Positions 7,511 to 49,386 of a stretch of DNA of 64,000 bases are shown here, in pieces. Where the stretch lies: the sequence record NC_047884.1; one strand, given 5' to 3'. A model generated the notes under the pieces. The model saw only the letters and a program-made list of their open reading frames with translations. It made no database searches and was not told the origin of the DNA. Position numbers and translations under genes: made by a program. Numbering within the stretch: the first letter of the stretch is position 1; the number at the start of each line of letters is the position of its first letter. The DNA is from Escherichia phage saus132.

Positions 7511-7540
7511 ATTTGATTCCTCTCTCAAATTTATAAATAT

Positions 7541-7569: not shown

Positions 7570-7616
7570 GTGAAAATTTCTGTATAATAGCCCTCTAAGC
7601 GAGGGCTATAACTACT

Positions 7617-9351: not shown

Positions 9352-9381
9352 ATTTGATTCCTCTCTCAAATTTATAAATAT

Positions 9382-9410
9382 ATTATACAGAGAATTTAGC
9401 ATTCAAGCAA
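9382..9410 (-). promoter_or_regulatory. early promoter cassette for nadR-pnuC operon
   Basis: 29-nt block identical to the cassette at 7541; -35 TTGCTT, 17 bp, -10 TATAAT. Confidence 0.65.
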
Positions 9411-9562
9411 TCGAATTTTTTAACTTTTTAGTGGAAAAAATCTCAAGGCATTTAGTGGTAGCACGTTGTTGCTACAATAATAGTATATGATTCTAAAGAA
9501 TTAAAGAATTAAATACTAAAGACCTTAGTTGAATAACTTATGGGCTTTTCTTTTGCCTTAAA

Positions 9563-9601
9563 TACAGAAAAGCCCGCGCTCTCGGAGGAAACGCGGGCTT
9601 A
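9563..9601 (-). terminator. rho-independent terminator after SPFH gene
   Basis: GC-rich hairpin AAGCCCGCG...CGCGGGCTT then U-run on minus strand. Confidence 0.7.
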
Positions 9602-9623
9602 TTTCGAAGATTACGTGTAACTA

Positions 9624-10568
9624 TTACTTATTACGCATATCCATAATCATCTGGCCATCATAACCAGTACCTACAACAGTCTGAGGAACGCCACCCTGAT
9701 ATTTTTCAGCGCGTTTCATATCAACTTCCAGCTGTTTCCAGCGAATCATCTCTGGAGTGATGGTACGCTGCAGAGCGGTGTTAGCTTCAGCTTCTTTCTT
9801 AGCCGCATACAGTTTAGCATCTGCGTCACGTTCGTTAGCTACTGCCATATTTTCACGAGCAGAACGATCAGCCTCAGCTTGCTTAACTTTCTGCTGTGCT
9901 TCTTGTTCAACACGAGCTAGTTCAGCTTTTGCAGCGTTAACTTGTTCTTCACGAACTTTGGTGTTTTGTACCTGTTCCATGATTACCGGTGGCAGAGTAA
10001 TATCCTGAAGGAATACTTGCTTAACGGTGTAGCCATAAGGACGCGCATACTCTTCTACTTCTTGCTGAATAGCGGTTTGCAGTTGAGCCTGAATCTTAGC
10101 GTCGAACAGATCTTGTGCTTTTGGTACAGACTTACCAAACTCACGAATCGTAGACAGCATCTTCTCTTCAACGTACTTGTTCAGAGCTTGATCCTGAGTA
10201 CCTGCGTTAACACGGTTCATAGGAGCTTTAGCACCATCAAACTGCAACATAACGGTAATGTCAACTGTAGACTTAAACTTATCCTGGCTAGGAACCTGAA
10301 GTTTATCCAGTTTCATAGAAATATCTTTCGTACTAAAAGTATCAAAAGAGGCGAATGGGTTGACAATATGGAACCCCGGCAATACAGGATTAGGACTAAC
10401 TTTACCCAGGAAAGTCTGAGTTTTAACCGTACCGTCCTGAACAACTGTATAGGAATTGAGAGCCAGAATAAGAGCGCCAAGACCAACTACAGCACCAACA
10501 CCCCAACGTTTAATAGTACGAATTACTTTTTGATCGGAAGTCAGTTCTTTAGTGTTTTTAGTAAACAT
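9624..10568 (-). CDS. SPFH/band-7 (HflK/C, prohibitin-like) membrane protein
   Basis: N-terminal TM helix, central SPFH-like region, C-terminal Ala/Glu/Gln-rich coiled coil; rho-independent terminator downstream. Confidence 0.6.
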   Translation of the reverse strand: MFTKNTKELTSDQKVIRTIKRWGVGAVVGLGALILALNSYTVVQDGTVKTQTFLGKVSPNPVLPGFHIVNPFASFDTFSTKDISMKLDKLQVPSQDKFKSTVDITVMLQFDGAKAPMNRVNAGTQDQALNKYVEEKMLSTIREFGKSVPKAQDLFDAKIQAQLQTAIQQEVEEYARPYGYTVKQVFLQDITLPPVIMEQVQNTKVREEQVNAAKAELARVEQEAQQKVKQAEADRSARENMAVANERDADAKLYAAKKEAEANTALQRTITPEMIRWKQLEVDMKRAEKYQGGVPQTVVGTGYDGQMIMDMRNK

Positions 10569-10579
10569 ATATTTCCTTA

Positions 10580-10780
10580 TTATTTAGAAGAGTTAGCTAC
10601 TACAGTTACTTTAGTTGCAGAAATAAACAGGCTAGCATCCACAGCAAATTCAGGAGCTTTGATATCTCCGTTATGAAATATGACTATACCGGAGACTACT
10701 TCAAATGCTAGCGCTGTAACATCGGTGGTATTTACTTGTGAATGTTCACCTACTACTTTTACTATATATCGTGTTTTCAC
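10580..10780 (-). CDS. hypothetical protein (66 aa)
   Basis: Short ORF between SPFH gene and tRNA-Arg. Confidence 0.35.
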   Translation of the reverse strand: MKTRYIVKVVGEHSQVNTTDVTALAFEVVSGIVIFHNGDIKAPEFAVDASLFISATKVTVVANSSK

Positions 10781-10806
10781 TTTATTTTCCTAGCAGTTAA
10801 TAAAAT

Positions 10807-10881
10807 TGGCCGAGGTGACAGGATTCGAACCTGCATAAAGGAATTTAGAAGACTCCTGCCTATCCCTTAGACTACACCCCG
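10807..10881 (-). tRNA. tRNA-Arg (UCU)
   Basis: Acceptor CGGGGTG/CACCTCG, anticodon arm GGAGT-CTTCTAA-ATTCC, T arm GCAGG-TTCGAAT-CCTGT, CCA encoded. Confidence 0.7.
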
Positions 10882-11740
10882 TTTAGGTATTTTTAAGAAC
10901 TCTTATAAAAGCTCTTAAAGATACCCGACGGTAGGTAGGGTCAGCCCCCTCAGATTAAGCTCTGCAGCCCTTCCGTCAGACAATATCTTCCAGTTTAAGT
11001 CAGGGTGACTTTGTGGTTATGTTCTCCGTATGTGAAGAACTCGGTTAGGCTTAGGTCATGACTCCCAGCCTACTGCTGCCGCTCAACAGGAATTATCGCG
11101 AATTACCTGTACTATTGGGCACCATTAGTGACATCTCTCATGTCAGCGTTTCCCACTCTCATATTCACGCGGTCTGTTAGAATCGCACCTCCGATTTTCG
11201 ATGCGAAGCTGGATGCCTAGTCTCAGGTTAAACGGGGCACACACTAGGCAGTGATCCCGAGTTCCGAGTTTGGTTGAGGCCGTCAGGTTTCCTCGTGGTT
11301 TAGCTGTTTCGATTCTAACCTAATACTGATCAGGTGGCGTACCTCCTGAACTGTCATAGTATGTACTCCAGCAGCGAATGCTTATCCGGTATAAGCCCGA
11401 GTTATCTGATTCTTTCCGACCGCAGGATTCGAACCTGCATCTTCCACCAGTTACGGTTTGATATTACCGTTTATACTAGGACGGCAGTGTTATCACATAA
11501 GTCAGTTCGACACCCCACTAACATAAACTAGAGAAGAGTTTACGAGATTTCGGGACAGCTCCCGAGTTTTCCGCAGATTTTCAGTTCCCTATCAATAGCA
11601 ATAAGCGTTAGCTCGTAGCCTCTCTCAGAGTACTTACTAGTCTCCAACTCACCGACTCTATTCAGTGGAATAGCTATCCTAGTAGGAATCACTAAACTCA
11701 CTCAGCGTAATCGGCTCGCTGTTCTCTAATTTATGAATCT

Positions 11741-11769
11741 ATTATACAGAATTTTGAGGCGTTTAGCAA
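11741..11769 (-). promoter_or_regulatory. early promoter facing an 860-nt ORF-free region and tRNA-Arg
   Basis: Minus strand -35 TTGCTA, 17 bp, -10 TATAAT. Confidence 0.6.
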
Positions 11770-11777
11770 ATCAATTT

Positions 11778-12221
11778 TTAATTAAATTCGCCAGCAACCT
11801 GAGCAGCAATGCCACCGTCGTAACGACCAGGAAACTCTTCCTTAATCGCTTTCATCAGCATACCTTTTGTAATCCCAGGGTTCAACTTAACTAATTCTGC
11901 AAAGTATTTGCGAATCTCAGAATCAGATAACTGAGGCGGCAGATACTGTTGTAGCCATTTGTTCAGTATATACTCATACTGAGCAGACTGCAAGCTATAA
12001 TTATCAAGGTCTTGACCGTGAAGTTTAGCTTTCGTCTGATTAATGCTTTTCAGTTGAGCTTTTAGATAAGATACAAACTGTTCAGAAGTAATGAAGTCTT
12101 TATCAACACGCTGAAGATCTCCGATTATGGTCTGGTAGCTTTTAGCTACTTCTTTATCAGAACCATCAACCTTAGATTCCTGCAAAGCCCTACGCAAAAC
12201 ATCTAGAATATTCTCTTCCAT
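11778..12221 (-). CDS. hypothetical protein (147 aa)
   Basis: ORF; no recognisable motif. Confidence 0.5.
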   Translation of the reverse strand: MEENILDVLRRALQESKVDGSDKEVAKSYQTIIGDLQRVDKDFITSEQFVSYLKAQLKSINQTKAKLHGQDLDNYSLQSAQYEYILNKWLQQYLPPQLSDSEIRKYFAELVKLNPGITKGMLMKAIKEEFPGRYDGGIAAQVAGEFN

Positions 12222-12259
12222 TATTTAATTCCCAGTGCTTGGTTAAAAGATTGTTCTGT

Positions 12260-12391
12260 CATAACTGCCGAGACTTTAGCGAAATCAAACTTCTTAGGGT
12301 TTGTAGTAATTTCAGCAACGTTAGTAGTTTTAACTGTTTTCGTAGTACGGATACCACGAGTATTAACACCAATAATTACAACTGATTTCAT
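12260..12391 (-). CDS. small hypothetical protein (43 aa)
   Basis: ATG with SD GAGAGGAAG directly downstream of early promoter 12423-12451; hand-translated; below track cutoff. Confidence 0.3.
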
Positions 12392-12422
12392 ATTTCGCTT
12401 CCTCTCATTAATTTATGAAAGT

Positions 12423-12451
12423 ATTATACAGAAATTTAAGGCTTTAAGCAA
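12423..12451 (-). promoter_or_regulatory. early promoter cassette
   Basis: Minus strand -35 TTGCTT, 17 bp, -10 TATAAT. Confidence 0.6.
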
Positions 12452-12459
12452 TCGAATTT

Positions 12460-12927
12460 TTAAGTTTTCTTAACCACAGGCTTGTAGAATGTATGGCCTT
12501 GAATCTTCGTTGTTTTCTTAAACTTCTTTGTCCAGTACGGTTTATCTTTACCACTATGGAAGTATAACGCTCCATGTGTTGGATCTTGTGGTAAATCAAC
12601 GTAGTATATCACTCTAGCTAAATTCTTAGCAACTTGCCAAGCCTCATCGGTTTTATCAACTTTTGGTCTCCTGGCCACCCAAGAGAACTGGTTAGACTGA
12701 TATACTACTTTACAGTAAGAATCAGGAAAAGTACCAGAGTTAACACGGTTTTTAGTAACCTGTGCAACTGCGATCATTCCTTTAGTGCCCTCACCTCGTG
12801 CTTCGAAGTAGATATTTTTTGCAATGCAATCAATCTGCTTTGAGTCGTAGGTCGCATGACTATTGAAGCTATAGGTTAGGGCAGCTATTAAAAGCAAAGC
12901 TGCCTTCATTTTATTTACTCCGGCCAA
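12460..12927 (-). CDS. secreted cell-wall hydrolase, SleB/CwlJ-like
   Basis: Signal peptide MKAALLLIAALTYSFNSHA; NIYFEARGE motif characteristic of SleB-type hydrolase domain. Confidence 0.55.
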   Translation of the reverse strand: MAGVNKMKAALLLIAALTYSFNSHATYDSKQIDCIAKNIYFEARGEGTKGMIAVAQVTKNRVNSGTFPDSYCKVVYQSNQFSWVARRPKVDKTDEAWQVAKNLARVIYYVDLPQDPTHGALYFHSGKDKPYWTKKFKKTTKIQGHTFYKPVVKKT

Positions 12928-13232
12928 TCGTACTCAATACGATTAGGGCTTTCTTGATACCCTTCGTCTAAGAGATCATTACGCATGGTCTCTTTAGCTA
13001 CTGGGTTCGAGGTTACTAGTACCACTTTCTTGGGTCTCTGACCAAATTCTAGGAGTAAACGAAGAATTTGATAACCTTCCATACCATCTACAGCCAGATC
13101 GTTATCCATATAAACGAAATGACCTGTGGTATCGGTTTTATTCAGAAACTCAACAGCGGCTTCGGGGGTTCGAATGATAATGTCCATTCCATGAAGGTTA
13201 CGCACATCATCAATCAGAATATGAAAAATCAT
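12915..13232 (-). CDS. hypothetical protein (105 aa)
   Basis: ORF downstream of early promoter cassette. Confidence 0.5.
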   Translation of the reverse strand: MIFHILIDDVRNLHGMDIIIRTPEAAVEFLNKTDTTGHFVYMDNDLAVDGMEGYQILRLLLEFGQRPKKVVLVTSNPVAKETMRNDLLDEGYQESPNRIEYDWPE

Positions 13233-13262
13233 AATAGCCTCGTCTCATCAATTTAAAAATAT

Positions 13263-13291
13263 ATTATACAGAAAACTAAACTAATTAGCAA
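13263..13291 (-). promoter_or_regulatory. early promoter cassette
   Basis: Minus strand -35 TTGCTA, 17 bp, -10 TATAAT. Confidence 0.6.
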
Positions 13292-13675
13292 ATACATTTT
13301 TAAATTGAGAGACTAGTAAACCGATAAACAGCCTAGAGGCGCCACAGGCCATATCTTATGAGCCATGTACCTTTGATCTAGGGTTTGAATCATCAACGAA
13401 TACTTTGCATCTTTTAGCTTTAGAAGGTTAGAAGTTTGAGTGCTTTTAACTTTTCAGCTTTCATACTTGAGCGTTGATCTTTGAAGTTGTGTTGGTACTA
13501 CCAACGACCTTTTGTTTTTACGTGTCAGATTAAATGTCTGATGTAATAAACATAATCTCCAATAGATTATACTTTATAGTATGGTCAGCGGTCTTATTTA
13601 ACCTCGTATTTCAACCGCTGCTGCGAGGTAAGATGCTTGGGCTTTCGTCTACCGATTTACTAGTCTTTTAAATTA

Positions 13676-14314
13676 TTACTCTACTTCGATAAAAGTAGAG
13701 GCGTTGGACTCAGACAGAACAAAGTCAACGTTAGTTGCAAAGTCCTGGTATTCTTCGTCGTGTTGCTTGATCAGCTTTTCCAGCTCCAGCGGATCGATCA
13801 GGAACGGAGTGTTCTTGAGTTCCAGCAGGTTAAGCTGCATCTTAACTTCATCCTCGGAAGTCTTCTTGTCGCGGGTAGCCATGGTATCCTGCAAACGCTC
13901 ATACTTGGCATCAAACTGAGCCTTCTGAGTGTTAAACTTAACAGTAGCAGCATGGAACTGCTTACGCATGTTAGCCAGCAACTGAGCCTTGAGTTCCATA
14001 GAACGCTTAGCTTCGATTGCTTCCGCAACAGTCATAGAGCGAGAGCCGATCTCTACAACAGTTTCAGCATTGCTCTTGATCAGCGCAGCTTTCAGACGAT
14101 CACGCTGGGACATCATATCCAGCAGAGACTGGAAATCAGTCTTAATACGAGTAGACAGAGCATCTACTTCGATTGCAGCGCCAACTACAACTTGGTTCTT
14201 GTCCTTACCTTCACCAACAGCAATCAAAAGCTGTTGTTCAGTAGCTTTACGGATTTTAGCTTCCAGAGACTTGATAGTTGCCAGAGCACGAGTTTTAGAG
14301 ATACGAGTAGTCAT
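13676..14314 (-). CDS. hypothetical coiled-coil protein (212 aa)
   Basis: Long ORF, charged and heptad-like composition. Confidence 0.55.
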   Translation of the reverse strand: MTTRISKTRALATIKSLEAKIRKATEQQLLIAVGEGKDKNQVVVGAAIEVDALSTRIKTDFQSLLDMMSQRDRLKAALIKSNAETVVEIGSRSMTVAEAIEAKRSMELKAQLLANMRKQFHAATVKFNTQKAQFDAKYERLQDTMATRDKKTSEDEVKMQLNLLELKNTPFLIDPLELEKLIKQHDEEYQDFATNVDFVLSESNASTFIEVE

Positions 14315-14367
14315 TATTTGCTTCCTTATATGAAGTTTGAGATTTGAATTTGTTTTAAAATGGTCTA

Positions 14368-14550
14368 TTACAGACCGATTGCCAGCAGAGTGCGCAGAAC
14401 AGTATCAGAACTGTTATCAATATTCGGATTAGCGCGATTCAGCACGTTAAAGATTTTCTGGATGCCGGACTGACGCTCAGCCATACGACGCAGACCCAGG
14501 TTACGTTTTGCTACTTTACCATTTTTACGGACGTTTTTAGATACTGGCAT
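14368..14550 (-). CDS. small basic protein (60 aa)
   Basis: ORF downstream of promoter cassette; Lys/Arg-rich. Confidence 0.4.
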   Translation of the reverse strand: MPVSKNVRKNGKVAKRNLGLRRMAERQSGIQKIFNVLNRANPNIDNSSDTVLRTLLAIGL

Positions 14551-14590
14551 AATTATTTTCCTTTTGTTGTTCTCTCAAATTTATGAATAT

Positions 14591-14619
14591 ATTATACAGA
14601 ATTTTGGAGCTGAAAGCAA
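14591..14619 (-). promoter_or_regulatory. early promoter cassette
   Basis: Minus strand -35 TTGCTT, 17 bp, -10 TATAAT. Confidence 0.6.
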
Positions 14620-14620
14620 A

Positions 14621-15322
14621 TCAAATTTTGATTTTTTCGATCATGATGGCTACACAATAACTTTCAACTAAAGCATCGAATGCTGGATCATGCTTCACGG
14701 GATAGATTCCATAACGAATGGTGTCCATCTTTTCCATTTTAGCTTTTGCCCAGCTAGCACCTTCGGCTTCTAGATCTTTATAACTATAACCAGCTTGCAT
14801 CCACTGATTACGGAAAGATCGAACGTTACCTAAGTTCCAGAATTTCCACGGAACTATTTCTTCATGGGTTCCGGCATGGAACGTATTTGCAGAGTAGATA
14901 GTCATATCAAACTCTGGGCCATTGCCGTAATACAGAGCATTATCTCCTAGAGACAATTCCATAATGTTCTGAGCCATAGAGAAGGCAGCGTAATTAGAAC
15001 CTACATCATTAGTGCAGTGATGCTTACCATCACGGAAGGCAATCAGTTTCGGATTGCGATTAGTCAATGCTTCTACTATATGGCAAGCTGAAGTACTCAG
15101 TCTAGCTTGTTCCATCCAGAATGCAATAGTAGAGGCAGTTACCTTAGCACCCGCATTAAGCTGATCCTGAACGTCTAGAGTAACGAAAACCAGATCAGGA
15201 TCTTTATCAATTCCGTGCATCGCTACAAAAGCGAAAGAAGGCATTGCGATATGAGTAGTACCGCAATTTCCTGGAGTACCTAGAGATTCAATGTCCAGCA
15301 TACCAAAGGGCTTGAATTTCAT
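14621..15322 (-). CDS. putative DEDD-type 3'-5' exonuclease (233 aa)
   Basis: N-terminal LDIESLG (DxE) and C-terminal HDPAFDA (H-x4-D) motifs. Confidence 0.45.
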   Translation of the reverse strand: MKFKPFGMLDIESLGTPGNCGTTHIAMPSFAFVAMHGIDKDPDLVFVTLDVQDQLNAGAKVTASTIAFWMEQARLSTSACHIVEALTNRNPKLIAFRDGKHHCTNDVGSNYAAFSMAQNIMELSLGDNALYYGNGPEFDMTIYSANTFHAGTHEEIVPWKFWNLGNVRSFRNQWMQAGYSYKDLEAEGASWAKAKMEKMDTIRYGIYPVKHDPAFDALVESYCVAIMIEKIKI

Positions 15323-15352
15323 AATTATGTCCTTTATTGTTGTAGAAAACTA

Positions 15353-15565
15353 TTAAAGAGCTGTCTCTTTAATAGACTCCCACTGTTTGGGGTCTTTCAG
15401 AGGAATTTCCTCTTCTTCAAACAGGTCTGTTCCATTTTCGTTAACATCCCAGTTTTCTTCCATGATTTCTTCTAGAAGCTCATGTTTAGAAAGACGAGTG
15501 TAGTCTCTAGCAGACTTATGAGTGCTAGCACGGTTAAAATCATTCTTTGCAACGAAGTTACGCAT
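15353..15565 (-). CDS. hypothetical acidic protein (70 aa)
   Basis: ORF. Confidence 0.4.
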   Translation of the reverse strand: MRNFVAKNDFNRASTHKSARDYTRLSKHELLEEIMEENWDVNENGTDLFEEEEIPLKDPKQWESIKETAL

Positions 15566-15573
15566 AGTTTCTC

Positions 15574-15598
15574 CAAATAAGAGGGGCTTTCGCCCCCT
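15574..15598 (-). terminator. rho-independent terminator
   Basis: Hairpin GGGGC-TTTC-GCCCC with U-rich tail on minus strand. Confidence 0.55.
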
Positions 15599-15606
15599 GA
15601 TTTAAA

Positions 15607-15822
15607 TTACTTGCCCAGTAGTTTAAGGATATTTTCCTTAATAGTTTGAGCAGATTTTTCACTCTTATTGGTTTCAGCCAGTTTCAGAGCGAGTTCTTCC
15701 TGCTGTTTCTGAATATCAGCAGCAGTTTTCTGGTCAGCTTCAATACGAGCTTGAAGTTCATCAGTAATAGTGGTAAAGGAAGCAACGATTTCAGTAACGG
15801 AACGTGGTTTCTTAGAGAACAT
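15607..15822 (-). CDS. hypothetical coiled-coil protein (71 aa)
   Basis: ORF followed by terminator hairpin. Confidence 0.45.
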   Translation of the reverse strand: MFSKKPRSVTEIVASFTTITDELQARIEADQKTAADIQKQQEELALKLAETNKSEKSAQTIKENILKLLGK

Positions 15823-15854
15823 AAAAATATCCTTAATTAGTCAGAGAAAGAGTT

Positions 15855-15878
15855 AATATATGGGGCTTTCGCCCCATC
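15855..15878 (-). terminator. terminator-like hairpin
   Basis: Hairpin GGGGC-TTTC-GCCCC; weak U tract. Confidence 0.4.
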
Positions 15879-15883
15879 AATCA

Positions 15884-16399
15884 TTACTTCGCTTTACGCT
15901 TACGAGCAGGTTTAGCGGATTTACGATCAGAAGCACCAGTAAACTTAATACCGATACCATAGCACAGAGCGCGAACGTTGTCACGGCTGTACTCTACACC
16001 GAAGATATTCGGTTTAACGGAGCCAAACTGTCCACGCGATTCACGCATTACGTCAGCCATTGGCTTACGCTTCTGATTGACTGCTTTTTCGTAGTCTTTC
16101 AGAGCCATACCGTTGCGGGCGAACATTTCAGCACCGCCGTTAAAGCTCAGAGTTACCGGTACAGACTTATGACCTTCACCCTTGATGAACACAACCTGCT
16201 TAGCAGTTGCGCGAGTAGAGTTCTTGGCCTTCGGCTTCTGGCGAACCGGAGCCGGAGACTTCAGGGCAGTCTGAGCCTGAGCATCAGTAGGATGCTTACG
16301 CAGATGACGTTCCAGACGAGCCTTACGATTGGCTTCGGTCTGAGCGAAAGTTTTAACTGCCGGAGCTGCCTGAGTTTTTGCGTTTTTCTGCTTAGCCAT
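15884..16399 (-). CDS. highly basic protein (171 aa), possible nucleic-acid binding
   Basis: Lys/Arg/Ala-rich N- and C-termini; promoter cassette upstream. Confidence 0.5.
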   Translation of the reverse strand: MAKQKNAKTQAAPAVKTFAQTEANRKARLERHLRKHPTDAQAQTALKSPAPVRQKPKAKNSTRATAKQVVFIKGEGHKSVPVTLSFNGGAEMFARNGMALKDYEKAVNQKRKPMADVMRESRGQFGSVKPNIFGVEYSRDNVRALCYGIGIKFTGASDRKSAKPARKRKAK

Positions 16400-21212: not shown

Positions 21213-21695
21213 TTATAAACTATCAAGCTCCAATAGTTTAGCATCGCGCCATTCTATAGCATCCTCTAATTCTTTAAATGTTTTAGTATGTTTTACACCT
21301 TTCCTAGCTATTTGGACTTGATAAGATCCACTTGCTTTTTGGTGTATATTTTTAATACCTAACTTATTGTCCTTATGTGCTCCAACGTTCTTTCCATTAC
21401 TAAATCTGTTAGAGGCTAGTAAATTAATTGCTCTATTATCATGACGTATTCTATTATCATGATCTACTTCTTTTGGGATGTACCCATGCGTAATATAGAA
21501 TGCTAGGATATGTGCGTAGTATTTTGTACCTCTTACCTGCATTACTATGTATCCTGAGCATTTTTCCAAAGAGCCTGCCTCTTTGCCTGCAAACTTAGTA
21601 TTAAATGATTTATCTTCTCTAGGTTTGTGGGTAAAGATTCCGGTTTCTGGATTATAGTCAAATAACTCAGCTATTTCTTTGTATTTTTCTTCCAT
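21213..21695 (-). CDS. HNH homing endonuclease
   Basis: HNH core DHDNRIRHDNRAINLLASN; lies between nrdA and nrdB. Confidence 0.7.
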   Translation of the reverse strand: MEEKYKEIAELFDYNPETGIFTHKPREDKSFNTKFAGKEAGSLEKCSGYIVMQVRGTKYYAHILAFYITHGYIPKEVDHDNRIRHDNRAINLLASNRFSNGKNVGAHKDNKLGIKNIHQKASGSYQVQIARKGVKHTKTFKELEDAIEWRDAKLLELDSL

Positions 21696-35234: not shown

Positions 35235-35939
35235 ATGGCTGGTTCTCGTAGAAAGAAACTTATCCATGAAATCCCTGATGAAACCTTTAAAAAGGTTATT
35301 GAACATCTAGAGAATGGTGGTACTAAGAAAGCAGCATGTGAAATGCTCGGCGTTTCTTCTAACCCAACTATGGAACGAATGATCGAGGAATGGAGAGATC
35401 GTCAGGTTCAAGTTGCGGAAATGAAAAAGAAGAAGCGCGGAACACTGATTGAAGGTGTTGAGCTTGCAAACGTAATTGAACAGTATCTTTCTGGTGATTC
35501 TTTTGAAGAAATCGCTGATCGTAATTATCGTTCTGTAGCGATGATTAAATCTGTTCTAGAACGTTACGGTGCTCTGCTTCGTTTAAATGATACTGTTGAT
35601 CCATTGAATCCTCCATTGATTCCTGATGATGCAATGGCAGAGGAATTTGAAGTTGGTGAACTTGTTTGGGTTCCTGGCTATCAGTGTATTGGTGAAATCA
35701 AGAAAGCAATGACTAACCCAGTTGGTTGCTATCGTGTTTGGTTGTTATCAGAAGGTAAACAACAGAACGTTCACTATATGCACTACGAATTAGCTTCTGT
35801 TAAACATCTGGAAAAGCTGGGAGTTGATGTTAAAGCTCTTGGCTTTAAATGGAGCCGTGAAGAAGTTATCACGTTGGTTAATGAAGCTGTTAAAGCTGCA
35901 CTGAAACTCGATAAAGAGAAAGGAAAACGCCGTGAGTAA
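35235..35939 (+). CDS. putative HTH DNA-binding protein (234 aa)
   Basis: N-terminal HTH-like GGTKKAACEMLGVSSNPTMERMIE; promoter cassette upstream. Confidence 0.5.
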   Translation: MAGSRRKKLIHEIPDETFKKVIEHLENGGTKKAACEMLGVSSNPTMERMIEEWRDRQVQVAEMKKKKRGTLIEGVELANVIEQYLSGDSFEEIADRNYRSVAMIKSVLERYGALLRLNDTVDPLNPPLIPDDAMAEEFEVGELVWVPGYQCIGEIKKAMTNPVGCYRVWLLSEGKQQNVHYMHYELASVKHLEKLGVDVKALGFKWSREEVITLVNEAVKAALKLDKEKGKRRE

Positions 35940-36206: not shown

Positions 36207-36235
36207 TTGCTCAATCCTATAATTCTTGATATAAT
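36207..36235 (+). promoter_or_regulatory. promoter
   Basis: -35 TTGCTC, 17 bp, -10 TATAAT. Confidence 0.55.
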
Positions 36236-36293: not shown

Positions 36294-36704
36294 ATGACTA
36301 CTCCAACTCAGTGGACTGATGAACTGTTCGAAAAAATGTCTTCCGATTACGTTGCTCGTATGGAGCAATTCCCAGAAGATGAGCGTCCGGGCGTTAGCAT
36401 GGAAATTGTTAGCGAAATTGCTCAGGAAAATGGTGTAACTCCGAACGGTTTCCGTATGAAGCTGACCAAAGCAGGTCTGTATATCAAGAAAGCTGCTGGC
36501 TCTACTTCTAAATCAAGCGCATCTACTGGAGAAAAAGCTTCTGGTGGTTCTCGTACTTCCAAAGCTCAGGCTCACTCCGATCTTCGCTCTGCATTCTCTG
36601 ATGCTGGCTTAGCACCGGACTTCCTGGACGACGCAATCATCGACAAGCTGACTGGTAAAGCAGCTGCTCATCTGGCAGAAGCTATCAGAGCTATCACTAA
36701 GTAA
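36294..36704 (+). CDS. hypothetical protein (136 aa) with one HTH-like module; host-like codon usage
   Basis: Module EIAQENGVTPNGFRMKLTKAGLYIK; codons rich in CTG/CGT/GCT/GGT. Confidence 0.5.
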   Translation: MTTPTQWTDELFEKMSSDYVARMEQFPEDERPGVSMEIVSEIAQENGVTPNGFRMKLTKAGLYIKKAAGSTSKSSASTGEKASGGSRTSKAQAHSDLRSAFSDAGLAPDFLDDAIIDKLTGKAAAHLAEAIRAITK

Positions 36705-36740
36705 TTCTTAGATAAATCCACCAACACAAGGAATACAGTT

Positions 36741-37037
36741 ATGAATAAAGCTGAAATTATTGCTCAATGCGAAAAATTTGGTGAGTTTTATCTTCATTAC
36801 GAAAAACTTCGTCAGAAAGGAACCACGTATCTTCAGGGTACGATGGAATTTGATCCAGCTCAGGATAAATACCTGGCTGAGCGTATTAAACGTGAGCGCA
36901 TCCGTAAGCCGAAAGAGGATGAAATCCTCGTTTTCTCTCGTACTAACGATAGCTTCCGTTTCATTCCTGTTGCGAAAGTTCGCCGTGTGACGAGCCTCCA
37001 GTCAGAGTTAGATCGTGCTTCTCCAGTAGGCCGATAA
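36741..37037 (+). CDS. hypothetical protein (98 aa)
   Basis: ORF followed by terminator. Confidence 0.5.
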   Translation: MNKAEIIAQCEKFGEFYLHYEKLRQKGTTYLQGTMEFDPAQDKYLAERIKRERIRKPKEDEILVFSRTNDSFRFIPVAKVRRVTSLQSELDRASPVGR

Positions 37038-37045
37038 GAAACCAA

Positions 37046-37070
37046 TTAGCCCCTATATGGGGCTTTTTGT
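37046..37070 (+). terminator. rho-independent terminator
   Basis: Hairpin AGCCCC-TATAT-GGGGCT then TTTTTG. Confidence 0.65.
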
Positions 37071-37087
37071 GTATTTGGGATATGTAA

Positions 37088-37396
37088 ATGAGCGATCAGG
37101 TAAATCAAAACTATGAAGGACACGTTGACGACCAGTCCATCATGCTTTGGGAGAAGGAGGGGGAACAAGTAAGACTAACCGTATCTGAATTTCGTGGGAA
37201 TCTATACATGGGAATTCGTTACTGGCTCCAAGATATTACTGGAGAGTGGTTTCCAACGAAATCCGGCTTCTCTTTTCCTTATACCCTAGAAACTACATCA
37301 CAGCTATTCTACGCTTTTACGCAAATCCTCAGTGAATCCGAGGTCTTGCATGAAGTACAGAAACGAGCTGAAGAACTCAAAGCCAAGAATGCCTAG
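37088..37396 (+). CDS. hypothetical protein (102 aa)
   Basis: ORF. Confidence 0.45.
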   Translation: MSDQVNQNYEGHVDDQSIMLWEKEGEQVRLTVSEFRGNLYMGIRYWLQDITGEWFPTKSGFSFPYTLETTSQLFYAFTQILSESEVLHEVQKRAEELKAKNA

Positions 37397-37423
37397 TTCT
37401 TGGCTTTTTCTTTATAAATGTAC

Positions 37424-37452
37424 TTGCTTTCATCCCTATTTTCTTATATAAT
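37424..37452 (+). promoter_or_regulatory. promoter
   Basis: -35 TTGCTT, 17 bp, -10 TATAAT, conserved UTR. Confidence 0.6.
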
Positions 37453-37481
37453 AGTTATATAAATTAATGAGAGGGGTGAAT

Positions 37482-37754
37482 ATGAAAAAGATAAAAATAA
37501 GTCCACTTAAACCTTTACCGTACATAGGACAGTCTTTAGTTCTTTCCTGGGAAGAAAAGCTCAATGGAGAGAAGGTACGTATGGTTCGACAGGGGTATAA
37601 ACTTATATCTCTCGCTTACGAAGCAAACACATTAGTTGCTGATATTTACTCTCCAATAACTCAAAGAGTGGGAAGTACTACCTATCTTTGCTTATGTAAG
37701 AACTTTACATGGCAGGGGGATACTATTCAGCCTAAAGCATATGAGGTACAGTAA
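37482..37754 (+). CDS. hypothetical protein (90 aa)
   Basis: ATG after SD GAGAGGGG. Confidence 0.45.
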   Translation: MKKIKISPLKPLPYIGQSLVLSWEEKLNGEKVRMVRQGYKLISLAYEANTLVADIYSPITQRVGSTTYLCLCKNFTWQGDTIQPKAYEVQ

Positions 37755-37949
37755 ATGGCAATAACACTTCCAAAGATTCAAGCAAAACTTAATTTGCTCT
37801 CCATAGCAAGAATCAATTACCAGGATAGTATCGGCACTCCAAACCAGAAAGCGTACAAAGATGCGTGGTTGAAAGAAGCTGCTGATTTAGCTGGTATGGC
37901 TGCGCAGTATAGTAAAGAACTCAAAATGGAAATCGCAGATGATGAATAA
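37755..37949 (+). CDS. hypothetical protein (64 aa)
   Basis: ATG directly after upstream TAA, SD GAGGT 9 nt upstream. Confidence 0.4.
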   Translation: MAITLPKIQAKLNLLSIARINYQDSIGTPNQKAYKDAWLKEAADLAGMAAQYSKELKMEIADDE

Positions 37950-38913
37950 TGTAAAAGACTTTATTAAACGTTGTCAAGAAGCGTACTACCAGGGAATGAG
38001 TCTTATTTCCGATGAAGAATATGATCGTCTGATTAAAAGATTCCCACTAGAGGAAGAAATCGGACCGAAAGGTGATATCCCTCATTTGTATCGTATGTAT
38101 TCTTTGCAGAAAGTCTATTACGATCGTGGTGATAAAGCTCCATTCAACCCACTTGGTCAGGTTGAAACTGATAAGTTAGATGGTTGTGCGATTTCTCTAT
38201 TATATATTAATGGTGAATTTATTCAAGCGTTAACTCGTGGTAACGGTATTCTAGGGAATGATGTAACGCATAATGTTAAAATGCTGAACATCCCTAAAAC
38301 TATCTCCCAAAAAGTTCCAACTCAAATCACTGGTGAAGTTCTCATCACTAAAGAAGTAGAGAACAAACGTAACTATGCTTCCGGTGCTATTAACTTGAAA
38401 GATAGTGATGATTTCATGCAACGTATTGGTGAAGGTGGTTTAATCTTCGTTGCATATGGTATCCAGTGTTCAGCGGAAACAGTCGGTATTACAGAAGCCT
38501 ATTTAAAAGATATGCTTTGGCTAGAGAATGAGAACTTCTTGACAGTTGTTAATGTTCGTTCCTTCTTTAAGTGGATTCCGACGGATGGTAAAGTTGTTCG
38601 TATTAATGATAACAACAAATTCTTCCGTGAAGGTTGGACTAATAAATTTCCTCGCGGTGCATTTGCTATTAAAGAGGATGAAGAAGGCGAAATTACCACA
38701 CTTGTTAAAGTTGAATGGCAAGTAGGGGCTTCTGGTAAAGTAACTCCAGTTGGTTATTTCGAACCGGTGATTATTGATGATGCCACAATCGTTAAAGCAA
38801 CTCTTAATAACGTTGATTATATTAACGCTCTCGATTTAGAGATCGGTTGCCAGATTCGAGTGATTCGTGCTGGTGGTGTAATCCCTTGTATAGTAGAGCG
38901 AGTATACGACTAA
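37939..38913 (+). CDS. NAD-dependent DNA ligase, adenylation-domain part
   Basis: KxDG adenylation motif (VETDKLDGCAIS). Confidence 0.75.
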   Translation: MMNNVKDFIKRCQEAYYQGMSLISDEEYDRLIKRFPLEEEIGPKGDIPHLYRMYSLQKVYYDRGDKAPFNPLGQVETDKLDGCAISLLYINGEFIQALTRGNGILGNDVTHNVKMLNIPKTISQKVPTQITGEVLITKEVENKRNYASGAINLKDSDDFMQRIGEGGLIFVAYGIQCSAETVGITEAYLKDMLWLENENFLTVVNVRSFFKWIPTDGKVVRINDNNKFFREGWTNKFPRGAFAIKEDEEGEITTLVKVEWQVGASGKVTPVGYFEPVIIDDATIVKATLNNVDYINALDLEIGCQIRVIRAGGVIPCIVERVYD

Positions 38914-38963
38914 TTCGTAACCCTTTGCTACCCGTTTACCATGTCGGAATTATAAAGTGGTTA

Positions 38964-38992
38964 TTGACATTTTCGCCGCTTAGGTATATACT
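38964..38992 (+). promoter_or_regulatory. promoter in the gap between the two ligase ORFs
   Basis: -35 TTGACA, 17 bp, -10 TATACT. Confidence 0.55.
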
Positions 38993-39056
38993 ATTATCAT
39001 TCAGTTGAGGGATAGAAAGTTATGGCGAGGGTAAGCAAAGTTAGTTAAAATTGTAG

Positions 39057-39085
39057 TTGCTAAATGCTTAAATACTTGCTATAAT
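39057..39085 (+). promoter_or_regulatory. promoter immediately upstream of ligase C-terminal ORF
   Basis: -35 TTGCTA, 17 bp, -10 TATAAT, conserved UTR. Confidence 0.6.
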
Positions 39086-39115
39086 ATTTATATAAATTGA
39101 TAAGGAAGAAATTTG

Positions 39116-39895
39116 ATGAAAATCGAAATTCCAACACAATGTCCCTCTTGTGGTTCTAAGCTAGATCTTGTCAACGGGCAATTATTCTGTAGGAATAAGT
39201 CCAACTGTCCAGCACAATCAAGTAAGTTAATCGAGAACTTCTGCACAAAAATGAAGTTAAAGGGCTTTGGCCCGAAAACTATTGAGAAGCTGGAACTGAC
39301 TAAGATCTCAGAACTGTTTTACCTGACCGAAGAAGATTTGGTCGGAGCTGTGGGTAGCAAGGTTGCCGCTAAGTTGATTAGCGAGTTAAATACTAAGGTT
39401 CGCGGAGACATTGACTTTGGTTCGGTTCTCGGTTCTTTAGGAATTCCTCTTATTGGAGAGGTTGCAGCAAAGAAACTGTCCCAAAATTGCACTAGCTTCC
39501 ACGATGTGAAGGCTGACGGCAAGGCTGGAGAAAATTACAAAACCTGGCTAAATTCCCCACAAGGCAAGGATGTTATTGAATTACCATGGAAATTCTCAAC
39601 TGGTATTCGAGGTACTAAAGCTGATATCATCATTACGGATGATTTAGTTGCCCAGCCAAATGGAATCACGATCTGTATTACCGGATCTTTGCAAGATTTT
39701 GCAAATCGAACGGATGCAACAAACTATTTAGAAAGTCTAGGATATACGGTTAAGAAATCCGTTACCAAAGACGTCAAATACCTAATCTGTGAGGATGAAT
39801 CAAAACGTTCTTCCTCATCTTATAAGAAAGCCGAAACGAATGGGATAGAAATCCTGTCGATTAAAGAACTATTGGAGAAAAATAATAATGTCTAA
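39116..39895 (+). CDS. NAD-dependent DNA ligase, C-terminal part (zinc finger, HhH, BRCT-like)
   Basis: Cys4 site CPSCGSKL...CRNKSNCP; own promoter and SD upstream. Confidence 0.7.
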   Translation: MKIEIPTQCPSCGSKLDLVNGQLFCRNKSNCPAQSSKLIENFCTKMKLKGFGPKTIEKLELTKISELFYLTEEDLVGAVGSKVAAKLISELNTKVRGDIDFGSVLGSLGIPLIGEVAAKKLSQNCTSFHDVKADGKAGENYKTWLNSPQGKDVIELPWKFSTGIRGTKADIIITDDLVAQPNGITICITGSLQDFANRTDATNYLESLGYTVKKSVTKDVKYLICEDESKRSSSSYKKAETNGIEILSIKELLEKNNNV

Positions 39896-40655
39896 ACTGA
39901 ACTGGAACGTAGAAGGTGTAACCGAGTCTCTGAAAGCAAAAGCCACTGCTCTGGGTGTTGCTGTAATCTCTCAAGAACAAGTAGCTGCTATCGCTGCTGA
40001 ACTGGCTACCGAGACTGGTAAAGACGTTACCGCTCGCTCTGTTGGCTCTAAGCTGCGTAAAGAAGGTTTCGAAGTACAGAAAGCTAACGAAGTACAGAAA
40101 TCCCCGTGGACTCCTGAGCAGGAAGCTGAACTAGTTGATTTCCTGAACGCTCATGCTGGTCAGTATACTTACGCTGAAATCGCTGCTGCTGTAGCTGGTG
40201 GTCAGTTCGGTGCTAAGCAGGTACAGGGTAAGATCCTGAGTCTGGAAATGACTGCTTCTGTTAAGCCAACTGAAAAAGCTGCTGCTGTTCGTTCCTTCAC
40301 TCCTGACGAAGAAACTGATTTCGTTAATCAGGTTGTTGCTGGTGCTACTATTGAAGCTATCGCTGCTCACTTCGGTCGTAATATTAAGCAGATCCGTGGT
40401 AAAGCTCTGAGCCTGCTTCGTGAAGGTCGTATCGCTGCTATGCCGGTACAGGAAACATCAAGTGCTAAGACTCGTGAAGATCTGTTAGAAGGTCTGGATC
40501 TGGCTTCCATGACTGTTGCAGAAGTTGCTGAGAAAACTGGTAAGTCTGAGCGCGGTGTTAAATCTATGCTGTCTCGTCGTGGTCTGGTTGCTAAGGACTA
40601 TGATGGTGCTGCTAAGCGTGCTAAACTGGATGCAAAAGCTGCGGCTGCTGAATAA
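39888..40655 (+). CDS. protein with four tandem HTH-like modules (255 aa); host-like codon usage
   Basis: Repeated modules (ELATETGKDVTARSVGSKLRKEGFEVQK, EAIAAHFGRNIKQIRGKALSLLREG, EVAEKTGKSERGVKSMLSRRGLVAKD); terminator downstream. Confidence 0.5.
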   Translation: MSKLNWNVEGVTESLKAKATALGVAVISQEQVAAIAAELATETGKDVTARSVGSKLRKEGFEVQKANEVQKSPWTPEQEAELVDFLNAHAGQYTYAEIAAAVAGGQFGAKQVQGKILSLEMTASVKPTEKAAAVRSFTPDEETDFVNQVVAGATIEAIAAHFGRNIKQIRGKALSLLREGRIAAMPVQETSSAKTREDLLEGLDLASMTVAEVAEKTGKSERGVKSMLSRRGLVAKDYDGAAKRAKLDAKAAAAE

Positions 40656-40671: not shown

Positions 40672-40706
40672 TAAGGGGAGGGGGCTATGCTCCTTCCCCT
40701 TTTTGC
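40672..40706 (+). terminator. rho-independent terminator
   Basis: G/C-rich imperfect hairpin AAGGGGAGG...CCTTCCCC then TTTTTG. Confidence 0.55.
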
Positions 40707-47561: not shown

Positions 47562-48092
47562 ATGATAACACAAGATAAGCTCAAAGAACTTTTCGAGTAT
47601 AACCCAGATACAGGTGATTTTACTCGTAGAGTAGCTAAAGGTAGAGCTGCAAAAGGAAGTATTGCTGGATCTCGTAACTCTAATGGTTATGTCTATATAA
47701 AAATAGATAAAATATCTTATCCTGCACATAGGCTTGCCTTCCTATACGTGGAAGGCAGGCTTCCTGAAGAGATAGACCATATTAATCGTATAAGATGGGA
47801 TAATAGGTGGAATAACTTGCGAGAGACCACACATCAACAAAACTGCAGAAATAGAAACACTAGAAGTACTTCTGGATATTTAGGCGTACATTGGGATAAT
47901 AATTCTTCTAAATGGAAGGTAGAGATAACTAACTGTATAGGTGTTAAAATATACGGTGGGTTATTCCCTTATGAGGAATTAGAGTTAGCTATAGATAAAG
48001 CTAATGAACTTAGAGCACAGCATCTAGGCATGGATTCCAGACAAGAACTATTCAAAGGATATATTTGTCGACGTGAGGACTTAGATAAGTAA
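47562..48092 (+). CDS. HNH homing endonuclease
   Basis: HNH core DHINRIRWDNRWNNLRETTHQQN; N-terminus similar to the nrd HNH. Confidence 0.75.
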   Translation: MITQDKLKELFEYNPDTGDFTRRVAKGRAAKGSIAGSRNSNGYVYIKIDKISYPAHRLAFLYVEGRLPEEIDHINRIRWDNRWNNLRETTHQQNCRNRNTRSTSGYLGVHWDNNSSKWKVEITNCIGVKIYGGLFPYEELELAIDKANELRAQHLGMDSRQELFKGYICRREDLDK

Positions 48093-48257: not shown

Positions 48258-48620
48258 ATGAAATTCTTTGATTACGAGAGAATTTACCTCTTAGCTAGAG
48301 GAAACTCCGACCTGATTGTCAAGCTATTTAATAGAATGCTTGCAGAGCCTGATGCTCACCAGTTACTGGTCGGTTCTTCATTCATCTTGAATGAATCAAC
48401 TATTGTTGATAACCCTTACAAATTGTCTAATAGACAACTGGCAGAATATCTAGGAATTCTAAGTCTACGAAATTATGCCGAATATAAGTTTACAAACGAT
48501 CCGAGTTTGGACATGCAATATGTCCCCATATGGATACCACGTTCTGTAATCGACACTAACCCACTAATTGCAATCAATAAATCGAAGATAATCTTTAAAG
48601 AGGAAATAAAATATGGCTAA
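48258..48620 (+). CDS. hypothetical protein (120 aa)
   Basis: ORF after promoter cassette. Confidence 0.5.
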   Translation: MKFFDYERIYLLARGNSDLIVKLFNRMLAEPDAHQLLVGSSFILNESTIVDNPYKLSNRQLAEYLGILSLRNYAEYKFTNDPSLDMQYVPIWIPRSVIDTNPLIAINKSKIIFKEEIKYG

Positions 48621-49386
48621 GTCTTGGGGCGAAACTACTGGCGGTTCTAACGATAAAATCGACTTCCTGAAATTCAACAACGGTGTAACTCGTGTTCGTA
48701 TCGTTTCTGGTGTTCTTCCACGTTATGTCTACTGGCTGACTAACAAAGATGGTAATGCAGCTCCGTTTGAGTGCCTGCGTTTCAACCGTACTAAAGAGAG
48801 CTTCGTTCGCGGTAAAGCTGACCCGATTCACGAAATGGGCTTCTTCGAGAAAGAGCTGGACAAAGATGGTAATCGTGTTCCGCTGAAACCGAAGAAAAAC
48901 TACATCGCTTTCGTTATCGACCGTTCTGATAACAAACTGAAAGTTATGGAAGTTAAAGCTACGATCCTGAAAGGCATCCAGTCTATCATGAAGCAGCTGA
49001 AACTGTCCGACCCGTTCGATATCGATATTTCTATCGAGAAGAAAGGTAAAGGCTTCGATACTGAGTACGATGTACAGCAGATCGCAGCAATGCAGTTCCA
49101 GATGGCTCTGAAAGATCCTACTAGCGCAGAAGCTAAACTGCACGCCGCAGATGCCGATATCCTCGGTGAAGCTATGTGTGATGATACTGGTGAGTTCATC
49201 AAGTTTGAAAAAGTTCCTTCTCTGGAAGAAACCTACCCGGTTCCGTCCTACGAAGAGCAGAAAGAAGCTATTCTCGCCTTCATGGAAGGTCGTGAGAAGC
49301 AAGACGGCGGTGACGCTAAGTCTGGTGGTGATGCTGGTTCTCAGAAAGGCATCGACGCTGAAGCTGCTAGCGATCTGGACGACTAA
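48613..49386 (+). CDS. putative ssDNA-binding protein (257 aa)
   Basis: Acidic C-terminal tail (ASDLDD) typical of SSBs, host-like codon usage, position before recombination nuclease genes. Confidence 0.45.
   Translation: MAKSWGETTGGSNDKIDFLKFNNGVTRVRIVSGVLPRYVYWLTNKDGNAAPFECLRFNRTKESFVRGKADPIHEMGFFEKELDKDGNRVPLKPKKNYIAFVIDRSDNKLKVMEVKATILKGIQSIMKQLKLSDPFDIDISIEKKGKGFDTEYDVQQIAAMQFQMALKDPTSAEAKLHAADADILGEAMCDDTGEFIKFEKVPSLEETYPVPSYEEQKEAILAFMEGREKQDGGDAKSGGDAGSQKGIDAEAASDLDD

What the first reader, a model, noticed from the sequence alone, without database searches (positions are those of the whole stretch)
36294..40655. Family of HTH-like modules in genes with host-like codon usage
Seen in sequence: 36294-36704 has one module and 39888-40655 four tandem modules of the form E-[IV]-A-x-E-x-G-x(4-6)-[RK]-[GS]-[VF]-[KR]-x-x-L-[KRS]-[KR]-x-G. 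Both genes, and the SSB-like gene 48613-49386, use CTG/CGT/GCT/GGT/AAA-type codons unlike the AT-rich codons of neighbours. Inference: abundantly expressed DNA-binding or host-mimicking proteins.
Basis: partly seen in the sequence, partly recalled or inferred. Interest (0 to 1): 0.4.

Follow-up and report, generated by a model that had tools for sequence, protein, structure and literature searches.

The report
Phage T5 D3/D5 DNA-binding proteins

Summary
The window is a T5-like phage (Epseptimavirus), 2 nt different from MF431736 positions 32001-96000. 36294-36704 is the D3 gene, 39888-40655 is D5 (98% identical to T5 D5) and 48613-49386 is the single-strand DNA-binding protein.

D5, SSB and D3 have the three highest codon adaptation values of 79 genes (0.77, 0.77, 0.71; mean 0.42; z = 7-12). 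Their orthologues in a Vibrio phage are again the three most codon-biased genes.

The bias reflects selection for expression, not host origin or mimicry: D5's GC3 equals the phage mean and it has no match in 5,426 E. coli genomes.

Published work already shows D5 is very abundant, binds DNA, and triggers a retron through an HTH. Verdict: already known; the tandem GcrA-like architecture and the A2/D3/D5 link are modest additions.

The parts
36207..36235 (+). Promoter-like site upstream of D3 (TTGCTC, 17 nt spacer, TATAAT)
   Evidence: Read directly from the sequence. It falls below the scan tool's threshold for the first hexamer, so it is an inference only.
36294..36704 (+). D3 gene (136 aa), orthologue of T5 D3; phrog_1725 'DNA binding protein'
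   Evidence: CAI 0.707, rank 3 of 79.
36306..36491 (+). D3 N-terminal three-helix HTH module (residues 5-66)
36492..36557 (+). D3 disordered Ser/Thr/Lys/Gly-rich linker (residues 67-88)
   Evidence: pLDDT dips below 50 within residues 68-86 and there is no secondary structure.
36558..36701 (+). D3 C-terminal helical domain (residues 89-136) with the invariant KLTGK motif; unrelated to the module
   Evidence: Alignment A2 invariants K118 to K122. Helices 90-103, 113-118, 121-135. hhalign against every module E>0.2.
38964..38992 (+). Promoter-like site (TTGACA, 17 nt, TATACT; 11 of 12) upstream of ligB-D5
   Evidence: A consensus match only.
39057..39085 (+). Promoter-like site (TTGCTA, 17 nt, TATAAT, with extended -10 TG) upstream of ligB-D5
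   Evidence: A consensus match only.
39888..40655 (+). D5 gene (255 aa, 27.0 kDa, pI 6.8), orthologue of the T5 D5 DNA-binding protein; its start overlaps the ligB stop by 8 nt
   Evidence: tblastn 97.9% identity to NC_005859 D5. phrog_323 E=9e-71. CAI 0.770, rank 1 of 79. Mass and pI.
39897..40079 (+). D5 module 1 (residues 4-64)
   Evidence: AF2 helices 11-22, 29-43, 49-58. Invariant W6, R50, S51, K55, L56, R57.
40101..40253 (+). D5 module 2 (residues 72-122)
   Evidence: Helices 76-88, 95-101, 109-118. Invariant Q113, G114, K115, L117. hhalign to GcrA-N 82.5% probability.
40290..40433 (+). D5 module 3 (residues 135-182)
   Evidence: Helices 139-150, 155-162, 166-178. Invariant G171, K172, L174. 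M2-M3 E=1e-9.
40473..40601 (+). D5 module 4 (residues 196-238), with a vestigial first helix
   Evidence: Helices (205-207), 210-217, 221-231. Sub-threshold Sigma70_r4_2 hit, 25.1 bits against a 25.7 cutoff.
40605..40652 (+). D5 C-terminal Ala/Lys-rich helix (residues 240-255)
   Evidence: Helix 240-254. Conserved DGAAKRAKLD.
40673..40701 (+). Intrinsic-terminator-like hairpin (13-bp stem, 8 G-C pairs, T run) directly after D5
48613..49386 (+). Single-strand DNA-binding protein gene (257 aa; 'D11' in a Vibrio phage annotation); shares the codon bias but not the module
   Evidence: phrog_1607 E=2e-103. CAI 0.768. Module HMMs find nothing in it.

Best explanation
D3 and D5 are early genes in the replication cluster of a T5-like phage. 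They encode abundant, largely sequence-non-specific double-strand-DNA-binding proteins built from a shared three-helix HTH module of about 50-60 residues.

D5 is a string of four such modules joined by short conserved linkers and ending in a basic Ala-rich helix. D3 has one module, a disordered linker and an unrelated helical C-terminal domain.

Inferred mechanism. Helix 3 of each module lies in the major groove, as in the GcrA DNA-binding domain. The residues invariant across D5 orthologues (Trp/Phe at the module start, Gly-Lys in helix 3) align with GcrA residues that contact the DNA (W3 and K39 the phosphate backbone, G38 a base). Three of GcrA's five other base-contacting residues (R33, H41, R42) are replaced by non-polar or small residues. 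One D5 molecule could therefore clamp several successive grooves and coat replicating phage DNA.

Because such proteins are needed stoichiometrically with DNA, D5, D3 and the SSB have been selected for the host's translationally optimal codons. That explains their 'host-like' codon usage.

Shown here: gene identity, the repeat, the fold class, the codon bias and its conservation. Taken from the literature: abundance, DNA binding and the phenotypes. Inferred: groove-by-groove coating and lack of sequence specificity.
For: Identity and synteny:
- The region is 100% identical to MF431736 and its sister isolates.
- D5 is 97.9% identical to T5 D5.
- The order D2-D3 ... ligA ... ligB-D5-helicase-primase-polymerase is conserved in Salmonella phage rutana and Vibrio phage Thalassa.

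Repeat.

Fold:
- The D5 model has pLDDT 93 and four tri-helical units.
- A GcrA-N profile against the modules gives M2 82.5%, M3 72%, M1 68% probability; the control gives 0.1%.
- GcrA contacts DNA through W3, K39, G38 and other residues (PMC5887438). These align with invariant W74, K115, G114 and G171, K172.
- T5 A2, annotated as a DNA-binding protein, carries the same module (94.7% probability, E=5.6e-8).

Expression:
- CAI ranks 1-3 and z = 7-12.
- The Vibrio phage orthologues have the three lowest Nc values of 43 genes.
- D5 is very abundant in T5 and BF23 lysates (PMC10644984) and a major protein in phiR2-01 proteomics (PMC8624392).

DNA binding and function:
- McCorquodale 1979, as cited in PMC12630848.
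- An AlphaFold3 model places a D5 HTH on retron msDNA, and D5 remodels the retron complex in mass photometry (bioRxiv 10.64898/2026.07.11.737809).
- Retron escape mutations in D5 fall on nearly invariant module residues G53, W74 and G232.
Against: - No module reaches the curated threshold of any Pfam family. The GcrA and Myb relationships rest on fold and on profile-profile probabilities of 68-83%, not on significant sequence hits.
- Foldseek on the whole chain found nothing with E<0.01.
- Non-specific coating and the footprint are inferred. I could not read the original 1979-83 biochemistry, so cooperative double-strand binding rests on my own recollection and on a secondary citation.
- D5 is near neutral (pI 6.8), which is unusual for a DNA-coating protein.
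- A retron-escaper T5 reportedly carries a W74* stop in D5, which sits oddly with an essential role.
- D3's role is unknown beyond its 'DNA binding' label.
Confidence: 0.8

Rival explanations
1. D5 is a sequence-specific transcription factor or sigma-like subunit that redirects host RNA polymerase to T5 late promoters. The HTH modules would read promoter elements, as region 4 of sigma does or as GcrA does while bound to sigma-70.
For: - Many records annotate it as 'transcription factor D5', 'transcriptional regulator' or even 'RNA polymerase sigma factor'.
- Module 4 scores 25.1 bits to Sigma70_r4_2 against a 25.7 cutoff.
- The best fold match, GcrA, is a sigma-70-bound activator (PMC5887438).
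- D5 mutants are reported defective in late gene expression (title of McCorquodale 1979, cited in PMC12630848).
Against: - No sigma region 2 and no GcrA sigma-interacting domain: there is no PF04542 or PF07750 hit, and TIGR02937 scores 13 bits against a 42.9 cutoff.
- Abundance comparable to capsid protein (PMC10644984) and ribosomal-protein-level codon adaptation are far beyond what a promoter-specific factor needs.
- Three of GcrA's five non-glycine base-contacting residues (R33, H41, R42) are replaced by non-polar or small residues in modules 2 and 3.
Confidence: 0.12
2. The codon usage is host-like because the genes were recently captured from an enterobacterial host, or because the proteins mimic a host protein.
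For: - The CAI values equal those of E. coli ribosomal proteins.
- A preprint describes D5 as mimicking a retron winged-helix protein (bioRxiv 10.64898/2026.07.11.737809).
Against: - No blastn match in 5,426 complete E. coli genomes.
- D5's GC3 of 0.324 equals the phage mean of 0.328.
- The 901 phage records with a tblastn hit are named for phages of Vibrio, Salmonella, Escherichia, Klebsiella, Proteus and other hosts; the ones examined are T5-like (Demerecviridae).
- Orthologues in a Vibrio phage show the same rank-1-to-3 bias.
- The retron 'mimicry' is generic HTH-DNA binding, not mimicry of a host housekeeping protein.
Confidence: 0.03
3. The modules are chance resemblances between Ala/Lys-rich helical segments, so there is no true repeat family.
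For: - The literal motif matches nowhere.
- Several module pairs are weak: M2-M4 E=0.024, M2-D3N E=0.008.
- Module 4 and D3N score only 12-16% probability against GcrA.
Against: - M2-M3 E=1e-9 and 2e-6 from the single sequences.
- The similarly helical D3 C-terminal control scores E>0.2 against every module.
- Conserved residues fall at equivalent helix positions in 40 orthologues.
Confidence: 0.03

Closest known systems
Bacteriophage T5 gene D5 product (T5.118; 'DNA-binding protein D5' or 'transcription factor D5')
   Same: 97.9% amino-acid identity, the same 255-residue length, and the same position between ligB and the replicative helicase. It is the same protein in a sister genus.
   Different: Nothing substantive. 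The four-module description and the GcrA-like fold assignment are my additions; I did not find them stated in the papers I could read.
Bacteriophage T5 D3 protein and T5 pre-early protein A2
   Same: D3 is the direct orthologue (94-99% identity to the closest of many T5-like D3 proteins). A2 shares the N-terminal module (hhalign 77% to D3, 94.7% to D5 module 1), the overall length (135 against 136 aa) and a Gly/Ser/Lys-rich linker.
   Different: A2 lies in the first-step-transfer region, outside this window, and belongs to a different temporal class. Its C-terminal half shows no detected similarity to the D3 C-terminus.
[quoted passage not shown]
   Same: - Full-length module alignment at 68-83% hhalign probability.
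- The Trp at the start and the Gly-Lys in the recognition helix align with GcrA DNA-contacting residues (PMC5887438).
   Different: - No PF07750 sequence hit.
- No sigma-70-interacting domain.
- Four tandem copies rather than one.
- Several of GcrA's base-reading residues (R33, H41, R42) are not conserved.
- GcrA is a low-copy, methylation-sensing activator.
Tandem Myb/SANT and homeodomain-like repeat proteins (c-Myb R1-R3, CDC5L/Cef1, SNAPC4, Tc3 bipartite domain, Timeless DBD)
   Different: The Pfam Myb score of 17.7 bits is below the 24.4 cutoff. The characteristic triad of regularly spaced tryptophans is absent. The context is a phage protein, and binding is presumably non-specific.

Membership tests
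T5 D5 protein family (PHROG 323) | Full-length sequence homology to T5 D5 | tested here: met
   tblastn 97.9% identity over residues 1-240 to NC_005859 D5. phrog_323 E=8.7e-71 over residues 1-253.
T5 D5 protein family (PHROG 323) | Position in the early replication cluster, directly after ligB and before the helicase and primase | tested here: met
T5 D5 protein family (PHROG 323) | High abundance in infected cells | not testable with these tools
   The proxy is met: CAI rank 1 of 79. Direct evidence exists only for T5, BF23 and phiR2-01 in the literature (PMC10644984, PMC8624392).
T5 D5 protein family (PHROG 323) | Binding to double-strand DNA | not testable with these tools
   Inferred from HTH folds and from the literature on T5 D5.
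T5 D3 protein family (PHROG 1725) | Full-length sequence homology and synteny after D2 | tested here: met
   phrog_1725 E=1.3e-49 over residues 1-136. D3-named homologues at 94-99% identity. Synteny.
GcrA family (Pfam PF07750) | N-terminal DNA-binding-domain fold | tested here: met
   [not shown]
GcrA family (Pfam PF07750) | Sequence match to the family model at its curated threshold | tested here: not met
   PF07750 is absent from the hit lists even at E<=10 for the whole proteins and for the isolated modules. A GcrA-N HMM built here finds nothing with E<0.4 in the window.
GcrA family (Pfam PF07750) | C-terminal sigma-70-interacting domain | tested here: not met
   D5 is filled by four modules plus one helix, and the D3 C-terminus has no GcrA match. 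No dedicated sigma-interacting-domain profile was run.
Myb/SANT (Pfam PF00249) | Match at the gathering threshold, and the conserved tryptophan triad | tested here: not met
   17.7 bits against a 24.4 cutoff. There is only one conserved aromatic residue, at the start of the module.
Sigma-70 family | Region 2 plus region 4 at curated thresholds | tested here: not met
   No region 2 hit. Sigma70_r4_2 scores 25.1 against 25.7. TIGR02937 scores 13.1 against 42.9.
Phage SSB (PHROG 1607), for 48613-49386 | Full-length homology | tested here: met
   E=2.3e-103 over residues 1-256. No solved relative by sequence.

The most novel reading that the evidence does not exclude
A2, D3 and D5 form a phage-specific paralogous family of GcrA-DBD-like DNA binders deployed in successive temporal classes. 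D5, as a four-module 'phage chromatin' protein present at near-structural abundance, would coat the replicating genome. That coat could be the unidentified non-specific factor by which T5-like phages, including Epseptimaviruses such as this one, escape Dam/Dcm and restriction-modification methylation. It might also contribute to nuclease insensitivity and to the early-to-late transcription switch.
Probability: 0.15. Interest if true: 0.6.

Novelty: already known. Interest (0 to 1): 0.2.

Why it matters
It matters little as a discovery. D5 is a classical T5 gene product whose abundance, DNA binding and HTH nature are in the literature.

The useful residue has three parts.
- A precise domain map: four tandem GcrA/Myb-like modules in D5, one in D3 and one in A2. 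This explains why the retron escape mutations fall where they do, and it corrects database labels such as 'sigma factor' and 'hypothetical protein'.
- A clean example of translational selection in a phage. The three DNA-coating proteins are the most codon-biased genes both in this phage and in a phage of another host.
- A testable candidate, D5 coating, for the unexplained hypomethylation of T5-like genomes.

Tried and rejected
- The literal regex of the finding gave zero matches. I replaced it with profile tests.
- Pfam and NCBIfam on the whole proteins and on isolated modules gave only sub-threshold HTH hits and no family assignment.
- PF26822 is listed for some D3 and D5 homologues in the precomputed table. 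It is not in the local Pfam copy, so I could not identify it.
- PDB sequence searches with the D5, D3 and M2+M3 profiles found no solved relative and did not retrieve GcrA. The strongest hit was a designed repeat protein, which I regard as uninformative.
- The T5 A1 N-terminus, reported elsewhere as GcrA-like by fold (bioRxiv 10.1101/2022.08.27.505566), shows no sequence or profile signal to the modules.
- The exhaustive D3-profile search found 202 clusters, nearly all 90-150 aa D3-like proteins. No D5-length protein appeared among the 150 listed, so it gave no independent D3-D5 link.
- The original D5 paper (PMC353123) and the Davison 2015 review (PMC4743489) are not held.
- The DRT4 paper's T5 'DNA-binding protein' is ORF55, not D3 or D5.
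- Host origin was rejected.


Full report
**What the window is.** A megablast of 36000-41000 hits five T5-like isolates at 100% identity (MF431736 and sisters, record positions 68000-73000), and hundreds of T5-like phages at 90-98%. The whole window differs from MF431736 32001-96000 at two positions. The record is classified as Epseptimavirus, family Demerecviridae. In well-annotated relatives the two ORFs of the finding are 'D3 protein' and 'D5 protein', and 48613-49386 is the ssDNA-binding protein. D5 is 97.9% identical to T5 D5. PHROG assignments agree: phrog_1725 'DNA binding protein', phrog_323 'transcriptional regulator, D5-like' and phrog_1607 SSB.

**Check of the repeat.** The underlying repeat is real.
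- I aligned 40 D5 orthologues down to 48% identity (A1) and 19 D3 orthologues (A2), then cut A1 into four slices.
- Profile-profile scores were M2-M3 E=1.2e-9, M3-M4 8e-5, M1-M4 3e-4, D3N-M4 1.5e-5 and D3N-M1 9e-5.
- The D3 C-terminal domain, used as a helical negative control, scored E 0.2-0.7 against everything.
- The uncut families align D3 2-71 with D5 1-68 at 86.7% probability, E=4e-6.
- Modules 2 and 3 of the window protein alone give BLASTP E=2e-6 at 40% identity.
- Among the 79 window proteins, the module HMMs pick each other out reciprocally. Only faint extra signals appear in D2 and two small ORFs.

**Structure.**
- AlphaFold2 with A1 gives pLDDT 93 and four three-helix units: 11-22/29-43/49-58, 76-88/95-101/109-118, 139-150/155-162/166-178 and (205-207)/210-217/221-231. 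A terminal helix follows at 240-254. Module 4 has only a stub of helix 1.
- D3 (pLDDT 76) has one such unit (9-23/31-45/50-59), a disordered linker and a separate helical domain.
- Whole-chain Foldseek was uninformative.
- To make this a test rather than a recollection, I retrieved real GcrA proteins and compared their N-terminal profile with the modules. Results were M2 82.5%, M3 72%, M1 68%, M4 12%, D3N 16% and the control 0.1%.
- In those alignments GcrA W3, G38 and K39 fall on D5's invariant W74, G114/K115 and G171/K172. In GcrA, W3 and K39 contact the phosphates and G38 contacts a base (PMC5887438). GcrA's base-reading residues R33, H41 and R42 are replaced by non-polar or small residues.
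- No module reaches any Pfam or NCBIfam threshold, and PF07750 never appears. These are therefore GcrA/Myb-like folds, not members of those families. The 'sigma factor' label in some records fails its membership test.

**The family extends beyond the window.** The T5 pre-early protein A2 is annotated as a DNA-binding protein needed for second-step DNA transfer. It matches D5 module 1 at 94.7% probability (E=5.6e-8) and the D3 N-terminus at 77%. It resembles D3 in length and linker. The A1 N-terminus has been reported as GcrA-like by fold (bioRxiv 10.1101/2022.08.27.505566) but shows no sequence signal here.

**Check of codon usage.**
- I derived CAI weights from 26 E. coli K-12 ribosomal-protein genes plus rpoA, tufA and fusA. 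They correlate at r=0.98 with the Sharp and Li table as I recall it.
- D5 (0.770), SSB (0.768) and D3 (0.707) rank first to third of 79 CDS. The mean is 0.416, and the E. coli reference genes average 0.68.
- Keeping each protein sequence and redrawing codons from the phage's own usage gives z = 11.9, 12.2 and 7.0.
- CTG is 81% of Leu codons against 21% elsewhere. ATC is 78% against 31%, TTC 92% against 50% and CCG 60% against 15%. AAA is not distinctive.
- D5's GC3 (0.324) equals the phage mean (0.328), and D5 has no blastn match in 5,426 complete E. coli genomes. This is not a compositional or transfer signal.
- In Vibrio phage Thalassa (D5 about 50% identical, different host), the D5, D3 and D11/SSB orthologues have the three lowest Nc values of 43 genes: 31.4, 32.6 and 35.4 against a median of 46.1. 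The bias is therefore a conserved, expression-linked trait.

**What is already published.**
- It was 'very abundant' in T5 and BF23 lysates (PMC10644984) and among the major proteins in phiR2-01 proteomics (PMC8624392).
- A July 2026 preprint identifies T5 D5 as the trigger of retron-Kva2 through an HTH predicted (AlphaFold3) to bind msDNA. Escape mutations were G53D, W74*, V149I and G232D in D5, and E30Q and G85D in D3. G53, W74 and G232 are nearly invariant module positions in my alignment.

**Gene context.** Two promoter-like sites (38964-38992 and 39057-39085) precede ligB. The D5 start overlaps the ligB stop by 8 nt, and a strong terminator-like hairpin follows D5 at 40673-40701. D5 (CAI 0.77) and ligB (CAI 0.33) therefore probably share a transcript but differ in translational tuning. 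D3 has its own TTGCTC-17-TATAAT element at 36207-36235.

**Verdict.** The inference 'abundant DNA-binding proteins' is right; 'host-mimicking' is not. The object is already known. The additions are the explicit four-module GcrA/Myb-like architecture, the A2-D3-D5 module family, and the conserved top-three codon bias. Non-specific groove-by-groove coating is my inferred mechanism and remains untested here.

Noticed in passing
window 9624-16399, minus strand (15884-16399, 13676-14314, 14368-14550, 15607-15822, 9624-10568): A second set of early genes has very high codon adaptation: CAI 0.60-0.70, z 6-10, and Nc 32-37 for the three of at least 80 codons. Most have no known function (phrog_4516, 5252, 2380). 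One is labelled 'tail fiber protein' (phrog_1491), which looks doubtful for a 212-aa gene in the early region, and one is labelled 'lipoprotein' (phrog_200). They are probably other abundant early proteins.
   Followed up: partly
NC_005859 (T5) 3727-4134, locus L005; outside the window: The T5 pre-early DNA-binding protein A2 appears to be a paralogue of D3. It has the same length (135 against 136 aa), the same N-terminal module (hhalign 77% to D3, 94.7% to D5 module 1) and a similar Gly/Ser/Lys linker (GGGSSIRKAHY against GGSRTSKAQAH).
   Followed up: partly
window 36558-36701 (D3 residues 89-136): The D3 C-terminal domain carries an invariant K-L-T-G-K motif and has no confident fold or sequence match. 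By eye it resembles a helix-hairpin-helix, which I did not test.
   Followed up: no
window 47562-48092 and 21213-21542: The two HNH homing-endonuclease genes have among the lowest CAI values in the window (0.220, the lowest, and 0.251, third lowest). This fits selfish insertions under weak translational selection.
   Followed up: no
window 37942-39895: The NAD-dependent DNA ligase is split into ligA and ligB genes, separated by about 200 nt that contain two strong promoter-like sites. ligB (CAI 0.33) overlaps the start of D5 (CAI 0.77) by 8 nt.
   Followed up: partly
window 1-10900, minus strand: A dense phage tRNA gene cluster (about 20 tRNAs) is interspersed with small ORFs. The relation between the phage tRNA set and the codons avoided by the high-CAI genes was not examined.
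   Followed up: no
homologue tables: A Pfam family absent from the local library, PF26822, is precomputed on some D5 homologues and also on some D3 homologues. This is an independent hint of a shared domain, but I could not find out what the family is.
   Followed up: partly
window 35235-35939 (D2): D2 (phrog_3611 'helicase') has sub-threshold HTH_28 and HTH_23 hits near its N-terminus, and a faint match of residues 78-112 to D5 modules 3 and 4 (E 0.03-0.12 in a 79-protein search). It may carry a further diverged copy of the module.
   Followed up: no
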